From assembly GCA_964612665.1 (NCBI GenBank), contig CAZTCI010000002.1:147659-211658 (forward strand): DNA of 64,000 nt, read 5' to 3'. A model generated the notes under the pieces. That model searched no databases. It saw nothing but the letters and a program-made list of their open reading frames with translations, and was not told the DNA's origin. Both the position numbers and the translations under genes were made by a program. The stretch comes from an uncultured Planctomycetales bacterium. GTDB lineage: Bacteria > Omnitrophota > Gorgyraeia > Zapsychrales > JAHFFX01. This document shows positions 14,591 through 19,770 of this stretch, piece by piece. Within the stretch, counting starts at the first letter, position 1, and each line of letters opens with the position of its first letter.

Positions 14591-15436
14591 ATGAAGGTTA
14601 TTCAAAATCCACAAGCCATGCAGCGATTAAGCCAGCGATGGCATCTAGAAGGAAAGACAATCGGTTTTGTGCCGACGATGGGTTATTTGCACGACGGGCA
14701 TGCGGCGCTTTTGCGGCGCGCTCGGCAAGAAAATCAAATAATTGTTTTGAGTATTTTTGTGAATCCGAAACAATTCGGCCCCAGTGAAGATTTTGCAAAT
14801 TACCCTCGAGATTTCAAAAAAGATGAAATGTTGGCAAAAAAAGAAAATGTTGATATAATCTTTCATCCGTCGGTCGACCAGATGTATCCCGAAGGGAATT
14901 TGAGTGAAGTCGAGGTTGTCAGAATTTCAAATGTGTTATGCGGCCGCAGCCGGCCTGGGCATTTCAAAGGTGTCGCAACCGTTGTGGCTAAATTGATCAA
15001 TATCGTTTTACCAAACCGGCTTTATCTTGGACAAAAGGATGCTCAACAAATCGTGGTCCTCAATCAGATGATTAAAGATTTAAATTTCCCTGTCAAAGTT
15101 TCCGTAGTCCCGACGGTCCGTGAAAAAGACGGTCTGGCCTTAAGCTCCCGTAATAAATATTTGACTCCGCAGCAAAGACACGAAGCGCCAGTTTTATTCC
15201 AATCCTTACAACTTGCCAAAACTAAGATTTTATCCGGCGAAAAAAACAGCCAAACAATTGTGGCTTTGATTCAAAAAATGGTTTCGTTTCATTCTTCGGG
15301 ACGCATTGATTATATTGCGTGTGTTGAAGCCCGGACACTTTTGCCTTTAAAGAAAATTTCAGGACGCGTATTGATTGCCTTGGCCGTGTGGTTTGGCCGG
15401 GCGAGATTAATTGATAATATTATTCTCAACGTTTGA
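14591..15436 (+). CDS. panC: Pantoate--beta-alanine ligase
   Basis: PTMGYLHDGH HIGH-type motif. Confidence 0.85.
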   Translation: MKVIQNPQAMQRLSQRWHLEGKTIGFVPTMGYLHDGHAALLRRARQENQIIVLSIFVNPKQFGPSEDFANYPRDFKKDEMLAKKENVDIIFHPSVDQMYPEGNLSEVEVVRISNVLCGRSRPGHFKGVATVVAKLINIVLPNRLYLGQKDAQQIVVLNQMIKDLNFPVKVSVVPTVREKDGLALSSRNKYLTPQQRHEAPVLFQSLQLAKTKILSGEKNSQTIVALIQKMVSFHSSGRIDYIACVEARTLLPLKKISGRVLIALAVWFGRARLIDNIILNV

Positions 15437-16332
15437 TGAAGACACCGAAGCCGAAAAAGACCGTCGGCGCACGGCGGATTAAAAAACCCGTTTTACCGAC
15501 ACTGTTGACAGAATCGTCTGAAAAAGTTAAGGTGGGGATCGTCGGGTGCGGGGCCATCGGGTCACGGATTGCCAAGAGTCTTCAAAAGGAATTAAAAGAT
15601 AATTGTGTCCTTGCCGGTTTATTTGATATTGATTTTGAGAAAGCCAAAGGTCTGGCGCAAACGCTTGGTGATTCGAATATTTTTAAAAAGTCTTTAGACG
15701 AACTTTTTACGGGCTGTGATTTTGTGGTTGAAGCGGTTGCCGCCGCTGAAACACAGGCTATTATCCGACGGGCATTGGAAGCTCAAAAAAATATTTTAGC
15801 CATGAGCGTTGGTAAATTGCTTAACGCTGATCATCTGTTTCGTCTGGCTCAAAAAAATAAATGTCATATTCTCATCCCCTCCGGGGCGATTGCTGGTATC
15901 GATGCGATTAAAGCAGCTAGTTTGGTTAATATTCAAAGTGTTTGTTTGACAACGCGCAAACCACCTATTGGTTTGGCAATGAGTTCTCTGGAAAGTCAGC
16001 AGGCTGTTGCTTTAGACAAGATCCGCGGCGAAACAGTTGTTTATGAAGGCGACGTTGATAACGCGGTCAAATTATTTCCCAAAAACATCAATGTTGCAGC
16101 AACAATAGCTTTGGCCTGCGGCGTTAAAGATAAGATGACGGTGCGCATCATTACCTCGCCGGAATTTAAAACGAATTCTCATGAAATAGAAGTTGTCGGC
16201 GATTTTGGACGGATGGTGACGCGCACGGATAATCAAGTATGTCCGGATAATCCTAAAACAAGCTATCTGGCTGTTTTATCGGCGATCGAAACACTGCGTG
16301 GGTATTTTCAGGAGGTCAGGGTCGGTACATAA
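15433..16332 (+). CDS. nadX: L-aspartate dehydrogenase (NadX-like), with a basic N-terminal extension
   Basis: VGIVGCGAIG Rossmann fold and FPKNINVAATIALA block typical of aspartate dehydrogenase. Confidence 0.65.
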   Translation: MMKTPKPKKTVGARRIKKPVLPTLLTESSEKVKVGIVGCGAIGSRIAKSLQKELKDNCVLAGLFDIDFEKAKGLAQTLGDSNIFKKSLDELFTGCDFVVEAVAAAETQAIIRRALEAQKNILAMSVGKLLNADHLFRLAQKNKCHILIPSGAIAGIDAIKAASLVNIQSVCLTTRKPPIGLAMSSLESQQAVALDKIRGETVVYEGDVDNAVKLFPKNINVAATIALACGVKDKMTVRIITSPEFKTNSHEIEVVGDFGRMVTRTDNQVCPDNPKTSYLAVLSAIETLRGYFQEVRVGT

Positions 16333-16344
16333 GTTTTTAAATAT

Positions 16345-16423
16345 GATTACACCGATTTTGAAGAGATTACACAGATACGAGGCTTCTAAATATCTGTGAA
16401 ATCAAAATTTAATCTGTGTCATC
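16345..16423 (+). promoter_or_regulatory. Four phased copies of GAT-N-ACAC-N-GAT (two direct, two inverted, 20 bp apart) upstream of 16471
   Basis: gattacaccgat (16345), gattacacagat (16365), atctgtgaaatc (16392), atctgtgtcatc (16412). Confidence 0.35.
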
Positions 16424-16470
16424 AAATTTAAAAACAAATTTTAACAACAAACGGAGGGAGGTGATAAGGT

Positions 16471-16722
16471 ATGGCAGCTAAAAAAGTCGCGAAGGTTGGA
16501 ATCAAAAAGGAAAAAGGTTACCTTTATTTTGTCGACAAACAAGGTGACATTTCTTGCGCGGTTATGGCTCGCGGTAATAAAAAAGGCGGGAAACCAAAGA
16601 AAGTCGCTAAGGTCGGTGTTAAAAAGGAATCAGGTTTCCTGTACTTCATCGACAAACAGGGTGATATCTCCTGTGCGCAGATGGTCCGTGGGGGGAAAAA
16701 GAAATCTAAGAAACGCAGATAA
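16471..16722 (+). CDS. Small basic protein (83 aa) made of two ~40-aa repeats
   Basis: KKVAKVGIKKEKGYLYFVDKQGDISCAVMARG then KKVAKVGVKKESGFLYFIDKQGDISCAQMVRG. Strong RBS ggagggagg, and a strong terminator downstream. Confidence 0.55.
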   Translation: MAAKKVAKVGIKKEKGYLYFVDKQGDISCAVMARGNKKGGKPKKVAKVGVKKESGFLYFIDKQGDISCAQMVRGGKKKSKKRR

Positions 16723-16745
16723 CCCACGCATTGGGAAAAATAAAG

Positions 16746-16780
16746 GCCCCCGGCATCAAAAACGGTCCGGGGGCTTTTAT
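16746..16780 (+). terminator. Rho-independent terminator
   Basis: gcccccgg ... ccgggggc stem followed by a T-run. Confidence 0.8.
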
Positions 16781-16953
16781 TTCTTATTTAATGACCAATC
16801 ACCAAACTCCAAATTGTAAATAAATTTCAAATCCAAATTTTTCAAAATATCAAACGGCAAGTTTGAAACATTGGAATTTTAAATTTGGTTCTTATTTGAA
16901 ATTTGGTGCTTGATGCTTGGATTTTAGACGTTGTTTTTCTAAAAGTTAAGTAT

Positions 16954-19770
16954 ATGAGCAACAACTCAATCCGCATCCGCGGAGCTAAAGAACATAATTT
17001 AAAAAATATTGATTTAACCATCCCGCGCAACCAGTTCGTCGTGGTCACGGGGTTAAGCGGTTCGGGCAAATCATCGCTCGCTTTTGATACCATTTACGCC
17101 GAAGGCCAGCGCCGCTATGTCGAAAGCCTTTCGGCGTACGCGCGTCAATTTCTTGAACAATTGCAAAAACCCGACGTTGAATTAATTGAAGGTCTTTCAC
17201 CCACGATTTCCATCGAACAAAAAACAACCAGCCGCAATCCGCGTTCAACCGTTGCCACGCAAACCGAAATCTACGATTATCTTCGTCTGTTATTTGCCCG
17301 TATTGGTACTCCGTACTGTTATAACTGCGGCAAAAAAATCGAACGCCAGTCCACCCAAGAAATCACCGAGCAAATTTTGTCTATGGAAGAAGGTTTGTCG
17401 ATCAATGTTTTGTCGCCTTTAATCGCCGGGCGCAAAGGCGAATACCTTAACATCCAACAGAAAGTGGCACAAGCCGGGTTCGCCCGCCTACGCGTCGATG
17501 GAAAAATTTACGATACGAATGATTCAATTAAATTAGATAAATTCAAAATTCATCATATCGAAGTTCTCGTTGATCGATTGACGCTTAAAGCCGGCGTCAA
17601 AAAACGTTTAGCGGATTCGATTGAAACCGCTTTGCAAACTGGCAACGGCATTGTGATTATTGATTTTAATGGAAAACTGCCGGATAAAGTTTTCAGTGAA
17701 AAATATGCGTGCCCGGATTGCGGGATTAATCTTTTGGAATTAGAGCCGCGCATTTTTTCCTTTAACTCGCCGTACGGCGCTTGCCCAAGCTGTAATGGTC
17801 TGGGAACGAAAATGGAAATCGACCCGCACTTGATGGTCCCGGATCCGTTGAAGCCTTGGATTCAAGCGGTTGCGCCGTGGAACCGCGGCGGCCGCGGATT
17901 TCTTATGTATCACCGCGCGGTTTTACGCGAACTGGCGCAGATGTATGACGTTGATCCGCAAACGCCGTTTAAAGATTTAAGCGCTAAGTTTAAGAAAATT
18001 GTTTTGAACGGTTCGGATGACACGATTTGGGGACGGACTTTTGAAGGCAGCGTTGGATATCTTGAACGGCTTTTTAATGAAACGGACAATGATTGGCTTA
18101 AAGATGAGATTTCAAAATTTATGTCGGTTCTACCGTGCCCGGAATGCCAAGGCAGCCGGCTTAAAAAAGAATCGCTCTCAGTTAAAATCAACAATCAGAA
18201 TATCGCTCAGGTCACCGCGCTGTCTATTAAAGAAGCAAAGAAATTTTTTTCCGGGCTGGAACTTTCCAAAGACAAGAAAATTATAAGCGAACAGATTTTA
18301 AAGGAAATTTCGCGGCGGCTGGATTTTTGTATTAATGTCGGGCTTGAATATTTGACGCTCGACAGGAAAAGCGCCACGTTGTCCGGCGGAGAAGCGGAAC
18401 GCATTCGCCTGGCGACGCAAGTTGGTTCCGGTTTGGTTGGGGTTATATATATTTTGGATGAACCGAGTATTGGGCTTCACCAAAAAGATAACGACCGGTT
18501 GCTTGCAACACTGCATTCTCTTCGGAATTTAGGCAATACCTTAATTGTGGTTGAACACGATGAAGACACAATCCGTGCGGCCGATTATGTAATTGATTTA
18601 GGACCGGGTGCGGGAGAGTATGGCGGTGAAGTGATTTATGCCGGCGATGTCCCGGGATTGTTAAAATCTGAAAATTCTTTGACTGGCCGATATCTTCGTG
18701 GCGAAATGAGAATTTTTATGCCGGAGAAACGCCGGGAAAGTTTCAAAACGCCGCAGTTAAAAATTTTAGGCGCTAGTGAACACAATCTTAAGAATATTGA
18801 CGTTACTATTCCCCTTGGAACTTTTGTGTGCGTGACTGGCGTTTCGGGTTCAGGGAAATCCACTCTGGTCGATGATATTCTTTATAAAGCCTTGTCGCAA
18901 AAATTATATGGATCAAAAGACAAGCCAGGTGCGTTTCGCAAAATCGAAGGTGTTGAACACATTGACAAAGTTATCGTCGTTGATCAATCACCGATCGGTC
19001 GTACGCCGCGTTCGAATCCGGCGACGTACACGGGCGTTTTTAGTTTGATCCGCGATGTGTTTTGCCAACTGCCGGAATCCAAAGTCCGCGGCTACAAACC
19101 CGGGCGTTTCAGTTTTAATGTGAAAGGCGGCCGATGCGAGGCCTGCGGCGGCGACGGGATTAAAAAAATTGAAATGCATTTCCTGCCGGATGTGTATGTG
19201 GAATGCGAAGTCTGCCACGGCAAAAGGTTTAACGAACAGACACTCGATGTTGAGTTCAAAGGAAAAAATATTTCTCAAGTTTTGAATCTTTCAATTTTGG
19301 AAGCGTTCGAACTTTTTGAGAATTTTCCGAGGATTAAGAATATTTTGCAGACGGTTAACGACGTGGGGTTAGGTTATATCAAACTGGGACAATCAGCGAC
19401 AACCTTATCCGGCGGAGAAGCCCAGCGCGTTAAATTAGCGAGCGAACTTTCCAAAGTAGCGACCGGCAAAACATTTTATATCTTAGATGAACCGACAACC
19501 GGTCTGCACTTCGCGGACGTTGATAAATTGCTTGGCGTCCTGCAGCGGTTAGTTGACATGGGTAATACGGTTCTCGTCATTGAACACAATCTGGAAGTCA
19601 TCAAAAACGCCGATTACATCATCGACCTTGGCCCCGATGGAGGAGACAAGGGAGGACAAATTGTGTTTCAAGGAACGCCTGAGGCCATTATTAAAGATAA
19701 AATTTCGCATACCGGCCGGTATTTAAAAAGTTTTTTGGAACGGCAGCAGTTGCCGGCGGCTGTTGTTTAA
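16954..19770 (+). CDS. uvrA: Excinuclease ABC subunit A
   Basis: Two ABC ATPase modules ([18 protein letters not shown]), zinc fingers, and LSGGEAQR signatures. Confidence 0.95.

What the first reader, a model, noticed from the sequence alone, without database searches (positions are those of the whole stretch)
16345..16788. Small internally duplicated basic protein with a phased four-site operator-like array and a strong terminator
Seen: ORF 16471-16722 encodes two ~40-aa repeats (KKVAKVGIKKEKGYLYFVDKQGDISCAVMARG and KKVAKVGVKKESGFLYFIDKQGDISCAQMVRG) that are conserved at the protein level but diverged at synonymous positions. That indicates an old duplication under purifying selection. It has a near-perfect RBS (ggagggagg) and a textbook terminator, which suggests high expression as a monocistron. 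Upstream are four copies of GATnACACnGAT (two direct, two inverted), each pair spaced exactly 20 bp apart. No known family comes to mind; it could be a nucleoid, ribosome or RNA-binding protein of this lineage.
Basis: seen in the sequence. Interest (0 to 1): 0.55.

Follow-up and report, generated by a model that had tools for sequence, protein, structure and literature searches.

The report
Conserved basic mini-protein plus inserted palindrome
The 83-residue, very basic two-repeat protein is real, extremely conserved across the bacterial phylum Omnitrophota and shared with some archaea, and belongs to no described family; the 'operator array' in front of it is a gene-less miniature copy of a widespread mobile palindrome that in its full form carries a small nuclease-like gene.

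Summary
This includes the 83-aa ORF, two repeats (26/33 aa identical, 14 of those by different codons), a strong SD, a strong terminator and four phased 12-mers.

The protein belongs to a large unnamed family:
- 3400 clusters at 90% identity and 936 at 50%, found in at least 587 GTDB species genomes.
- It is 70-91% identical across Omnitrophota, where its neighbours are about 40-65% identical.
- It also occurs in Woesearchaeota and marine Euryarchaeota.
- There is no Pfam, NCBIfam, PDB or BFVD relative. AlphaFold (pLDDT 89.6) gives two three-stranded β units.

My best guess, which is inferred, is an abundant nucleic-acid-binding, nucleoid-type protein.

It is not a stand-alone monocistron. In most relatives it lies 13-60 nt behind an aspartate-dehydrogenase gene, at the end of a conserved operon.

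The "operator" reading fails:
- The four sites lie in a ~105-nt palindrome inserted only in this species.
- The same phased GATTACACAGAT arrays recur in more than 120 metagenome contigs.
- They bracket PD-(D/E)xK "GxxExxY" (PF13366) genes in 7 of 7 independently chosen loci carrying five phylum labels.

The array is therefore a MITE-like derivative of an apparently undescribed mobile element.

The parts
16471..16722 (+). Gene for the 83-aa basic two-repeat protein (stop codon included)
   Evidence: ORF list and translation. It has 3400 homologue clusters and 936 clusters at 50% identity.
16480..16583 (+). Repeat unit 1, a three-stranded β unit (residues ~4-36)
   Evidence: Direct repeat D1. 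The AlphaFold model has strands at residues 4-7, 17-21 and 27-31.
16597..16700 (+). Repeat unit 2, a three-stranded β unit (residues ~43-75)
   Evidence: Direct repeat D1, 73% DNA identity to unit 1. Strands at residues 43-46, 56-60 and 66-70.
16453..16464 (+). Shine-Dalgarno sequence GGAGGGAGGTGA
   Evidence: Read. A GGAGGTGA-type SD is present in essentially all 80 relatives.
16738..16789 (+). Intrinsic terminator: a 16-bp G+C-rich stem, 13-nt loop and T-rich tail
   Evidence: Inverted repeat I9. Fold -33.1 kcal/mol, z = -5.6. A comparable hairpin plus T-tract follows the gene in 40 of 79 relatives.
16333..16445 (+). Inserted palindromic mini-element, a gene-less copy of the PDDEXK_3-associated element. 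It begins 1 nt after the aspDH stop codon. The 3' edge is approximate.
   Evidence: The insertion is absent from the closest relatives (alignment A4). Nested inverted repeats. Fold z = -4.1. The same architecture occurs in 52 elements from metagenomes.
16345..16356 (+). Site 1, GATTACACCGAT
16365..16376 (+). Site 2, GATTACACAGAT
16392..16403 (-). Site 3, GATTTCACAGAT on the minus strand
16412..16423 (-). Site 4, GATGACACAGAT on the minus strand
15433..16332 (+). Upstream aspartate-dehydrogenase-like gene. In relatives it ends 13-60 nt before the small gene.
   Evidence: ORF. The orthologue in L086 carries Pfam NAD_binding_3 and Asp_DH_C. Synteny holds in 71 of 81 loci.
16951..19770 (+). Downstream uvrA-like gene, a conserved neighbour in a separate transcription unit after the terminator
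   Evidence: ORF. It lies downstream in 56 loci. The name rests on reading the sequence; no profile search was run.

Best explanation
Two unrelated things lie side by side.

(1) The ORF.
- Shown: it encodes a member of a large, unnamed and very strongly conserved family of ~75-85-aa basic proteins. Each protein is built from two tandem three-stranded β units.
- Inferred: it is an abundant architectural protein that binds nucleic acid without sequence specificity, most likely DNA, in the manner of a nucleoid-associated protein. Binding would use the conserved lysines and the exposed aromatic residues of the G-[YF]-L-Y-F hairpins. In many orthologues a histone-H1-like K/A-rich tail would add to this.
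- Shown: it is the last gene of a conserved block (dapB, aminotransferase, folK, panC, aspDH, small gene). It is translated from a near-perfect SD and followed by an intrinsic terminator.
- Inferred: it is co-transcribed with that block.

(2) The four-site array.
- Shown: it is not an operator of this gene. It is a ~105-nt gene-less miniature of a mobile palindromic element. That element has phased (20-22 bp) GATTACACAGAT sites in direct pairs on one side and inverted pairs on the other.
- Shown: in its full ~0.5-kb form these arrays bracket a PD-(D/E)xK 'GxxExxY' (PF13366) gene.
- Shown: the copy here was inserted into the ~20-nt spacer between aspDH and the SD, in this species only.
- Inferred: the PF13366 protein recognises the 12-mers and mobilises both forms.
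- Inferred: the insertion is neutral, or at most adds a hairpin to the operon transcript.
For: Protein:
- No hit in Pfam, NCBIfam or PDB sequences.
- 3400 clusters at 90% identity, the best 120 all 78-100% identical, and every source name among them reads Omnitrophota or 'hypothetical protein'.
- At least 587 GTDB species genomes carry it.
- It is 63-91% identical where aspDH is 39-64% and panC 45-65% identical.
- Almost every residue, surface lysines included, is invariant within the phylum.
- pI is 10.3.
- K/A-rich tails of 10-90 aa occur in many orthologues.
- Homologues sit in clearly archaeal gene neighbourhoods.
- The module is fused to membrane anchors, zinc ribbons and other domains.
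- The AlphaFold model reaches pLDDT 89.6 and pTM 0.73 with six strands.
- There are no phage or plasmid copies.

Operon:
- Synteny, spacers of 13-60 nt, a universal SD and terminators.

Element:
- The insertion is private to this species.
- The sites are absent upstream of 80 orthologues.
- More than 120 metagenome contigs hold phased pairs. The unconstrained positions strongly prefer GATTACAC[ACT]GAT.
- 52 compact elements have the same layout, of which 22 are clean ++-- quads.
- One host contig is Omnitrophota, judged by its Rho protein.
- Long-loop copies contain PF13366 genes.
- PF13366 homologues chosen by protein similarity alone carry the arrays on both sides in 7 of 7 independent loci. 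These loci carry Omnitrophota, Nitrospirae, Ratteibacteria, WOR-3 and Deltaproteobacteria labels.
- A mini-element is nested inside a full element.
- There is no hairpin-specific covariation of variable site positions or of spacers. Selection therefore appears to act on the sites rather than the stems.
- PF13366 is listed with unknown function and 'multiple transfers' (PMC3424549).
Against: Protein:
- Nothing here shows that it binds DNA or RNA, or that it is abundant.
- The K/A tails are absent from the window's own protein.
- The only similarities found are short motif-level ones. They are to choline-binding hairpins and, more weakly, to bL36.
- A promoter inside the 3' end of aspDH cannot be excluded.

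Element:
- Only one copy and no PF13366 gene lie in the 64-kb window.
- The rest of the genome could not be searched.
- No clear target-site duplication was seen.
- No experiment links the PF13366 protein to the 12-mer.
Confidence: 0.5

Rival explanations
1. The protein is a lineage-specific ribosomal protein, or another RNA-binding or ribosome-associated factor, rather than a DNA-binding protein.
For: - It is small, basic, single-copy and near-universal in the phylum, with a strong SD and very high conservation.
- A single-repeat profile gives its best PDB hit to bL36, though at E = 0.3.
- The K-G-[YF]-x-[YF]-[VI] hairpin recalls the RNP1 motif of cold-shock domains. This last point is my own knowledge and was not tested.
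Against: - No ribosomal family matches in Pfam, NCBIfam or PDB ribosome chains.
- hhalign against bL36 gives only 28% probability.
- The gene is never next to translation genes in Omnitrophota.
- The family crosses the bacteria/archaea divide. That is common for chromatin proteins and unusual for ribosomal proteins (my own knowledge).
- The module is fused to membrane anchors and zinc-ribbon/GAF proteins.
Confidence: 0.2
2. The four-site array is a working operator in this species. A transcription factor, or the PF13366-type protein acting in trans, binds the phased sites and regulates the small gene.
For: - The sites are phased by two helical turns and are far more frequent here than chance allows.
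- Across elements, selection seems to act on the 12-mers rather than on the stems, which points to a protein that binds them.
- The array sits directly upstream of the SD.
Against: - It is absent from all relatives, including the 96%-identical orthologue.
- The same arrays occur at unrelated loci, for example coaE|rho, ispA|dxs and dnaX|ybaB, with no common downstream gene.
- No sigma-70-like promoter was found on the + strand in the spacer.
Confidence: 0.07
3. The palindrome acts at the RNA level. In the operon transcript it would form a long hairpin serving as a partial terminator, an RNase III processing site or a 5' stabiliser, and so uncouple the small gene's mRNA from the upstream genes. 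This is compatible with a mobile origin.
For: - The predicted hairpin folds at -32.8 kcal/mol, z = -4.1, and starts 1 nt after the upstream stop codon.
- Other relatives have acquired unrelated hairpins at the same spot: L024, L027, L029, L041 and L062.
- The window holds several other long intergenic hairpins.
Against: - There is no covariation that would maintain pairing. Spacers are no more complementary than shuffled ones (0.41 against 0.41), and the variable site positions match no better in pairing than in non-pairing combinations.
- No U-tract follows the hairpin.
- No Rfam family matches.
Confidence: 0.2
4. The protein binds a non-nucleic-acid ligand, such as a polyanion, choline-like head groups or another protein, through hairpins related to cell-wall or choline-binding repeats.
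For: - The profile gives weak hits to a choline-binding protein and to glucansucrase repeats, E = 0.08-0.14.
- The module occurs in many copies in larger membrane-anchored proteins.
Against: - The hits are not significant in database searches, and Pfam CW_binding_1 was not reported even at E <= 10.
- The protein has no signal peptide, only two units and extreme basicity.
- Orthologues carry H1-like tails.
Confidence: 0.1

Closest known systems
Small basic β-sheet chromatin proteins of archaea (Sso7d/Sac7d, Cren7)
   Same: It is about 7-9 kDa, lysine-rich, all-β and stand-alone. Its conservation suggests high abundance. This is a resemblance in kind only, drawn from my own knowledge of those families.
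   Different: There is no sequence match and no Foldseek match to any PDB chain (best E = 0.88, TM < 0.3). The protein here is an internal tandem duplication of a three-stranded unit, not an SH3-like barrel.
Histone-H1-like K/A-rich tails of bacterial nucleoid proteins (Hc1, HupB, AlgP-type)
   Same: Many orthologues end in (KKxA)n tails of 10-90 residues. In those known proteins such tails bind DNA (my own knowledge).
   Different: The tail is an optional add-on and is missing in the window's protein. The conserved core is unrelated to HU or Hc1.
Choline-binding / cell-wall-binding repeat (Pfam CW_binding_1)
   Same: It shares the hairpin motif G-x-aromatic-Y-[YF]-x-D-x-x-G. hhalign gives 84% probability over 17 columns, and there are weak PDB hits.
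   Different: The match is below significance in database searches. This protein is cytoplasmic, very basic and has two units of ~39 aa, rather than long arrays of 20-aa units on secreted proteins.
REPIN-RAYT systems and MITEs (for the array)
   Same: Short palindromic doublets are dispersed in intergenic spacers. An enzyme gene is bracketed by the same sequences in inverted orientation. Presence varies between close relatives.
   Different: The bracketed gene is a PD-(D/E)xK PF13366 protein, not a HUH/Y1 (RAYT) or DDE transposase. The conserved units are phased 12-mers that are not themselves hairpins. The same 12-mer is kept across loci carrying at least five phylum labels. No target-site duplication is evident.
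Transposon ends with multiple phased transposase-binding sites (Tn7, Mu, Tn402 type)
   Same: Each end has several directly repeated sites about two helical turns apart, and the two ends are inverted. The description of those known transposon ends is my own knowledge.
   Different: The element is only ~0.5 kb with a single ~122-aa gene, and it has no DDE transposase.

Membership tests
HU/IHF and other described nucleoid protein families | Match to the family profile (for example Pfam Bac_DNA_binding) | tested here: not met
   Pfam and NCBIfam scans at E <= 10 give no such hit.
Known ribosomal protein families | Match to a ribosomal protein profile or to a ribosome chain in the PDB | tested here: not met
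   No hit. The single-repeat profile hits bL36 only at E = 0.3, and hhalign gives 28%.
Known ribosomal protein families | Physical presence in purified ribosomes | not testable with these tools
   This needs mass spectrometry or cryo-EM of Omnitrophota ribosomes.
Nucleoid-associated protein (functional class) | Binds DNA with little sequence specificity and is abundant in the cell | not testable with these tools
   The only support is indirect: basic charge, conservation, H1-like tails in orthologues and a strong SD.
Sso7d/Cren7-type SH3-like chromatin proteins | SH3-like five-stranded barrel fold | tested here: not met
Choline-binding / CW_binding_1 repeats | Significant match to the repeat profile, in long tandem arrays on secreted proteins | tested here: not met
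   Not reported by Pfam. PDB profile hits have E = 0.08-0.7. There are only two units and no signal peptide.
Operator of the downstream gene | Sites conserved upstream of orthologous genes | tested here: not met
   None of 80 relatives has a site. The closest relatives lack the whole segment.
Operator of the downstream gene | Overlap with or proximity to a promoter | tested here: inconclusive
   No sigma-70-type match on the + strand in 16333-16470. Omnitrophota promoters are not characterised.
MITE-like non-autonomous mobile element | Terminal or subterminal inverted repeats | tested here: met
   Nested inverted repeats at 16333-16357/16411-16435 and 16365-16377/16391-16403.
MITE-like non-autonomous mobile element | Presence/absence difference between close relatives at the same locus | tested here: met
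   Alignment A4: the segment is absent from L083, L085, L086 and L001 and present in the same-species contig L081. L082, also same-species, carries the same four sites.
MITE-like non-autonomous mobile element | Many dispersed copies at unrelated loci | tested here: met
   More than 120 contigs, several with 2-3 copies. Only one copy lies in this 64-kb window, and the rest of the source genome was not searchable.
MITE-like non-autonomous mobile element | A longer form with the same ends that encodes an enzyme | tested here: met
   PF13366 genes are bracketed by the same arrays in 7 of 7 loci chosen by protein similarity and in 6 motif-selected loci.
MITE-like non-autonomous mobile element | Target-site duplication | tested here: inconclusive
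   Comparing the filled and empty sites shows no unambiguous duplication.
REPIN/RAYT | The associated gene is a HUH/Y1 (IS200/IS605-like) transposase, and REP units are hairpins | tested here: not met
   The associated gene is PF13366 PDDEXK_3 (E = 1e-30 to 1e-35). The 12-mers are not palindromic.
Intrinsic (Rho-independent) terminator | G+C-rich stem-loop followed by a T-tract, just after a stop codon | tested here: met
   Located at 16738-16789, -33.1 kcal/mol, z = -5.6.

The most novel reading that the evidence does not exclude
The small protein would be the main chromatin or nucleoid protein of Omnitrophota, and of some Woesearchaeota and marine Euryarchaeota. That would make it a new cross-domain family of DNA-packaging proteins with a fold not yet in the PDB. 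Separately, the PF13366 'GxxExxY' PD-(D/E)xK proteins would be the mobilising enzymes of a new class of small mobile elements. Those elements are defined by phased GATTACACAGAT arrays and have abundant gene-less miniatures.
Probability: 0.25. Interest if true: 0.8.

Novelty: new variant of a known kind. Interest (0 to 1): 0.6.

Why it matters
Omnitrophota are widespread, mostly uncultured nanobacteria. A single-copy protein that is more conserved than its neighbours, present in hundreds of species, shared with two archaeal lineages and absent from every protein-family and structure library is a good candidate for a missing core component, either chromatin or ribosome. It is small enough to test quickly in vitro.

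The reinterpretation of the array also gives PF13366, a family listed as 'function unknown', its first concrete and testable context. It would be a nuclease-like gene embedded between phased inverted 12-mer arrays, with MITE-like derivatives that insert into operon spacers of housekeeping genes in genomes labelled as at least five phyla.

Tried and rejected
- Pfam, NCBIfam, PHROGs and PDB sequence searches with the protein, a family profile and a single-repeat profile gave no significant relative. The DotY, BaiB and PspA hits are far below their cut-offs, and I take them as chance or compositional matches.
- The first AlphaFold run, with a shallow alignment, was poor (pLDDT 58). The second, with 69 diverse sequences, was good.
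- tblastn against phage and plasmid collections gave no match.
- Rfam has no family for the palindrome or the leader.
- A literature search for the 12-mer strings, for Omnitrophota nucleoid proteins and for PF13366/GxxExxY found nothing that describes either feature.
- The idea that the arrays are the two ends of a 6-kb transposon in L097 was rejected, because the interior holds ordinary housekeeping genes.
- The idea that the element travels with the small-protein gene was rejected, because none of the 120 motif-bearing contigs encodes it.
- An integron attC site and a REP/RAYT element were considered and rejected on motif and gene content (the defining motifs are from my own knowledge).
- A search for HU in the held sequence found none. 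This is uninformative, because only fragments of genomes are held.
Full report
**Observation.**

The ORF 16471-16722 (+) encodes the 83-aa protein exactly as quoted. It has pI 10.3, 25 K+R and 6 D+E.

Residues 4-36 and 43-75 are 26/33 identical, and 14 of the 26 identical residues use different codons. DNA identity between the two halves is 72-73%.

The SD GGAGGGAGGTGA lies at 16453-16464. The terminator at 16738-16789 has a 16-bp stem and folds at -33.1 kcal/mol, z = -5.6.

Four 12-mers lie at 16345, 16365 (+) and 16392, 16412 (-), with each pair 20 bp apart. The third site reads GATTTCACAGAT, so the shared pattern is GATnnCACnGAT. That pattern occurs 5 times in the window against 0.35 expected.

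Together the four sites form one nested palindrome, 16333-16435. It starts 1 nt after the upstream stop codon and folds at -32.8 kcal/mol, z = -4.1.

**The protein family.**

Pfam, NCBIfam and PDB sequence searches give nothing above noise.

The word-indexed search of 5.8 billion clusters found 3400 relatives. The best 120 are all 78-100% identical and about 80-100 aa long. Wherever a source names them, they are 'hypothetical protein' from Omnitrophota.

The exhaustive profile search of 1.84 billion representatives found 936 clusters at 50% identity. Nearly all keep the two-repeat layout. The duplication is therefore ancient and has been maintained.

Members also occur in Woesearchaeota and in marine Euryarchaeota, in clearly archaeal neighbourhoods:
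- L014 has an RPA-like OB-fold protein and a PIN-domain-like protein; both names rest on my reading of the translations.
- L073 has HerA-like, small-GTPase-like, DUF2073-like and zinc-ribbon proteins, again named by reading the translations.
- L217-L220 have eIF2α, PAC2, ThrRS and PcrB by precomputed Pfam hits, with the gene standing alone.

Longer proteins carry the same module. Examples are membrane proteins with 2-5 copies after a transmembrane helix, a DoxX fusion, and a protein with zinc ribbons, GAF and a prokaryotic RING domain.

Many Omnitrophota orthologues, and one Woesearchaeota orthologue, add K/A-rich tails of 10-90 residues resembling histone H1.

There are no phage or plasmid copies.

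**Conservation and context.**

In 71 of 81 loci the small gene directly follows an aspartate-dehydrogenase-like gene, within the block dapB, aminotransferase, folK, panC, aspDH, small gene. A uvrA-like gene lies downstream in 56 loci (Asp_DH_C domain).

The small protein stays 63-91% identical, while aspDH is 39-64%, panC 45-65% and uvrA 60-89% identical. Within the phylum almost every residue is invariant, surface lysines included.

A GGAGGTGA-type SD precedes the gene in essentially all relatives. A long hairpin plus T-tract follows it in 40 of 79 relatives by a crude scan.

The spacer between the aspDH stop codon and the start codon is only 13-60 nt in most relatives. The gene is therefore best read as the strongly translated last cistron of an operon, not as a monocistron with its own control region. 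A promoter inside aspDH cannot be excluded.

**Structure.**

With a shallow alignment AlphaFold was unconvincing (pLDDT 58). With 69 diverse sequences it gave pLDDT 89.6 and pTM 0.73. The model has two equivalent units of three strands each: residues 4-7, 17-21, 27-31 and residues 43-46, 56-60, 66-70.

Profile searches of PDB sequences give only sub-threshold hits:
- Choline-binding protein and glucansucrase repeats, E = 0.08-0.14.
- bL36 with a single-repeat profile, E = 0.3.

hhalign of the repeat profile against LytA choline-binding repeats gives 84% probability over 17 columns, and against bL36 gives 28%.

**The array is an inserted mobile palindrome.**

None of the 80 GTDB relatives has a single GATnnCACnGAT site in the 200 nt upstream of the gene.

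I aligned the window with the closest available relatives, whose proteins are 96, 90, 89 and 88% identical. A block of about 105-110 nt holding all four sites is present only in the window and in the same-species contig L081 in that alignment; L082, also same-species, carries the same four sites. The relatives go from the aspDH stop codon to the ATG in 18-26 nt.

Five positions of each site were left free, yet three variants dominate: GATTACACAGAT (106 instances), GATTACACCGAT (68) and GATTTCACCGAT (67).

Fifty-two compact elements (three or more sites on both strands, spanning at most 130 nt) have the same layout; 22 of them are clean ++-- quads. In those quads the direct pairs are 20-22 bp apart and are followed, after 2-63 nt, by inverted sites with the same spacing. 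Several contigs hold two or three copies.

They sit in short spacers between ordinary genes, for example coaE|rho, ispA|dxs and dxs|tlyA-like; the gene names rest on my reading of the translations. One such contig is Omnitrophota, since its Rho protein is 84-87% identical to Rho proteins named as Omnitrophota or Omnitrophica. None of the contigs encodes the small protein.

**Link to PF13366.**

Clustering of the genes near arrays gave only one family that recurs immediately beside them. Another four-locus cluster, polyprenyl-synthase-like, was ordinary neighbouring genes. The recurring family is a ~122-aa PD-(D/E)xK 'GxxExxY' protein, Pfam PDDEXK_3, E = 1e-30 to 1e-35.

Six of the seven elements with a long interior contain exactly this gene. 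They are L090, L143, L152, L161, L172 and L199. The seventh, L149, holds a PIN toxin and antitoxin pair.

As an unbiased test I took homologues of the L143 protein by protein similarity alone and fetched their loci. The loci were labelled as follows:
- Omnitrophota: three loci.
- Nitrospirae: one locus, inserted between dnaX and ybaB-recR.
- Ratteibacteria: one locus.
- WOR-3: one locus.
- Deltaproteobacteria: one locus.

All seven independent loci have 2-5 GATTACACAGAT-type sites directly upstream, with the last abutting the start codon. All seven also have at least two inverted sites downstream, and in most the first overlaps the stop codon. One Omnitrophota locus (L210) matches only as a one-mismatch variant, GATTACAGCGAT. 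One locus (L221) has a gene-less mini-element nested inside the full element.

The window's array is therefore a miniature of this element, with a 15-nt centre where the gene would be.

**DNA sites or RNA stem?**

Across 22 clean four-site elements, the variable positions of the sites match no better between pairing partners than between non-pairing sites. At position 9 the figures are 0.55 against 0.59. The spacers are no more complementary than shuffled spacers, 0.41 against 0.41.

Selection thus appears to act on the 12-mers themselves. That fits recognition by a protein, and the PF13366 product is the obvious candidate. This last step is an inference.

**Mechanism, with what is shown and what is inferred.**

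Shown:
- The gene, its repeats, the family's size and conservation, the operon position, the SD and the terminator.
- The insertion, its dispersal, and its association with PF13366.

Inferred:
- The protein is abundant and binds nucleic acid, most likely DNA as a nucleoid-type protein.
- The grounds are its charge, the conservation of its whole surface, the H1-like tails in orthologues, its cross-domain spread, and the use of the module in larger proteins.
- I put nucleic-acid binding of any kind at about 0.6 and DNA/nucleoid at about 0.4.
- The PF13366 protein mobilises the element (about 0.5).
- The insertion is neutral, or adds an RNA hairpin to the transcript.

**Comparison with known systems.**

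The protein works, if the inference holds, like Sso7d, Cren7 or HU-class architectural proteins. It fails every membership test I could run for those families, for ribosomal proteins and for choline-binding repeats.

The element is closest in logic to REPIN-RAYT pairs and MITEs. It is also close to transposon ends with phased binding sites. It differs in its enzyme (PD-(D/E)xK, not HUH or DDE), in its non-palindromic 12-mer units, and in keeping the same 12-mer across loci with different phylum labels.

I found no paper that describes either feature. The one survey that lists PF13366 gives 'unknown' function and 'multiple transfers' (PMC3424549).

**Limits.**

- No binding, abundance or mobility data exist here.
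- Only 64 kb of the source genome could be searched, and it holds one element and no PF13366 gene.
- The more sensitive fold libraries were unavailable.
- Taxon labels of metagenome bins are those of the depositors, and some are clearly wrong.

**Verdict.**

The 'monocistron with a four-site operator' reading is replaced by 'last cistron of a conserved operon, with a species-specific insertion of a PF13366-type mobile palindrome'.

Noticed in passing
window 61153-61235, 59854-59949, 58015-58088, 63639-63745: Other long (75-110 nt) intergenic hairpins whose arms are built from short internal repeats, each with its own sequence. The one at 61153-61235 uses TAGGTGT/ACACCTA units and fills the whole spacer between two co-directional ORFs. 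They may be further families of palindromic insertions.
   Followed up: no
window 16795-16912: An A+T-rich inverted repeat with 51-nt arms (76% complementary) lies between the small gene's terminator and the uvrA start. The spacer is not conserved in the closest relatives.
   Followed up: partly
L014 3998-4414, L064, L007, L011 and other loci: Orthologues of the small protein carry histone-H1-like (KKxA)n C-terminal tails of very variable length, up to about 90 residues.
   Followed up: partly
L014, L073, L217-L220: Close homologues (63-85% identical in the best segment for the GTDB loci labelled as archaea, L014 and L073 among them) lie in genuinely archaeal gene neighbourhoods in Woesearchaeota and marine Euryarchaeota. 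This implies transfer between domains.
   Followed up: partly
P0121 (886 aa), P0125, P0154, P0194, P0195, P0212: The two-strand-hairpin module also occurs in 2-6 copies inside larger proteins. These include proteins with the module after transmembrane helices, a DoxX fusion, and a protein with zinc ribbons, GAF and a prokaryotic RING domain.
   Followed up: partly
L097 640-710 and 6525-6612; L094, L100, L149, L171: A second site variant, GATTTCACCGAT, dominates contigs of GC 0.42-0.46. One of these (L097) looks Bacteroidota-like and carries arrays of four sites.
   Followed up: no
L149 388-1240: Here the arrays bracket a PIN-domain toxin and antitoxin pair instead of a PF13366 gene. The gene names rest on my reading of the translations.
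   Followed up: no
L221 899-982 within 470-1051: A gene-less mini-element is nested between the PF13366 stop codon and the right-hand array of a full element.
   Followed up: yes
L024, L027, L029, L041, L062 (spacer between aspDH and the small gene): Several other Omnitrophota species have acquired unrelated hairpin-forming insertions of 90-160 nt at the same spot. The site seems prone to such insertions.
   Followed up: no
L013, L017, L019, L042, L063 and others: GTDB records labelled Planctomycetales, Deltaproteobacteria, Phenylobacterium or Halanaerobiales carry the full Omnitrophota synteny block. These bins are probably mislabelled or contaminated.
   Followed up: no
window 36157-36800: A cluster of tRNA-Thr(tgt), tRNA-Tyr(gta) and tRNA-Gly(tcc) genes.
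   Followed up: no
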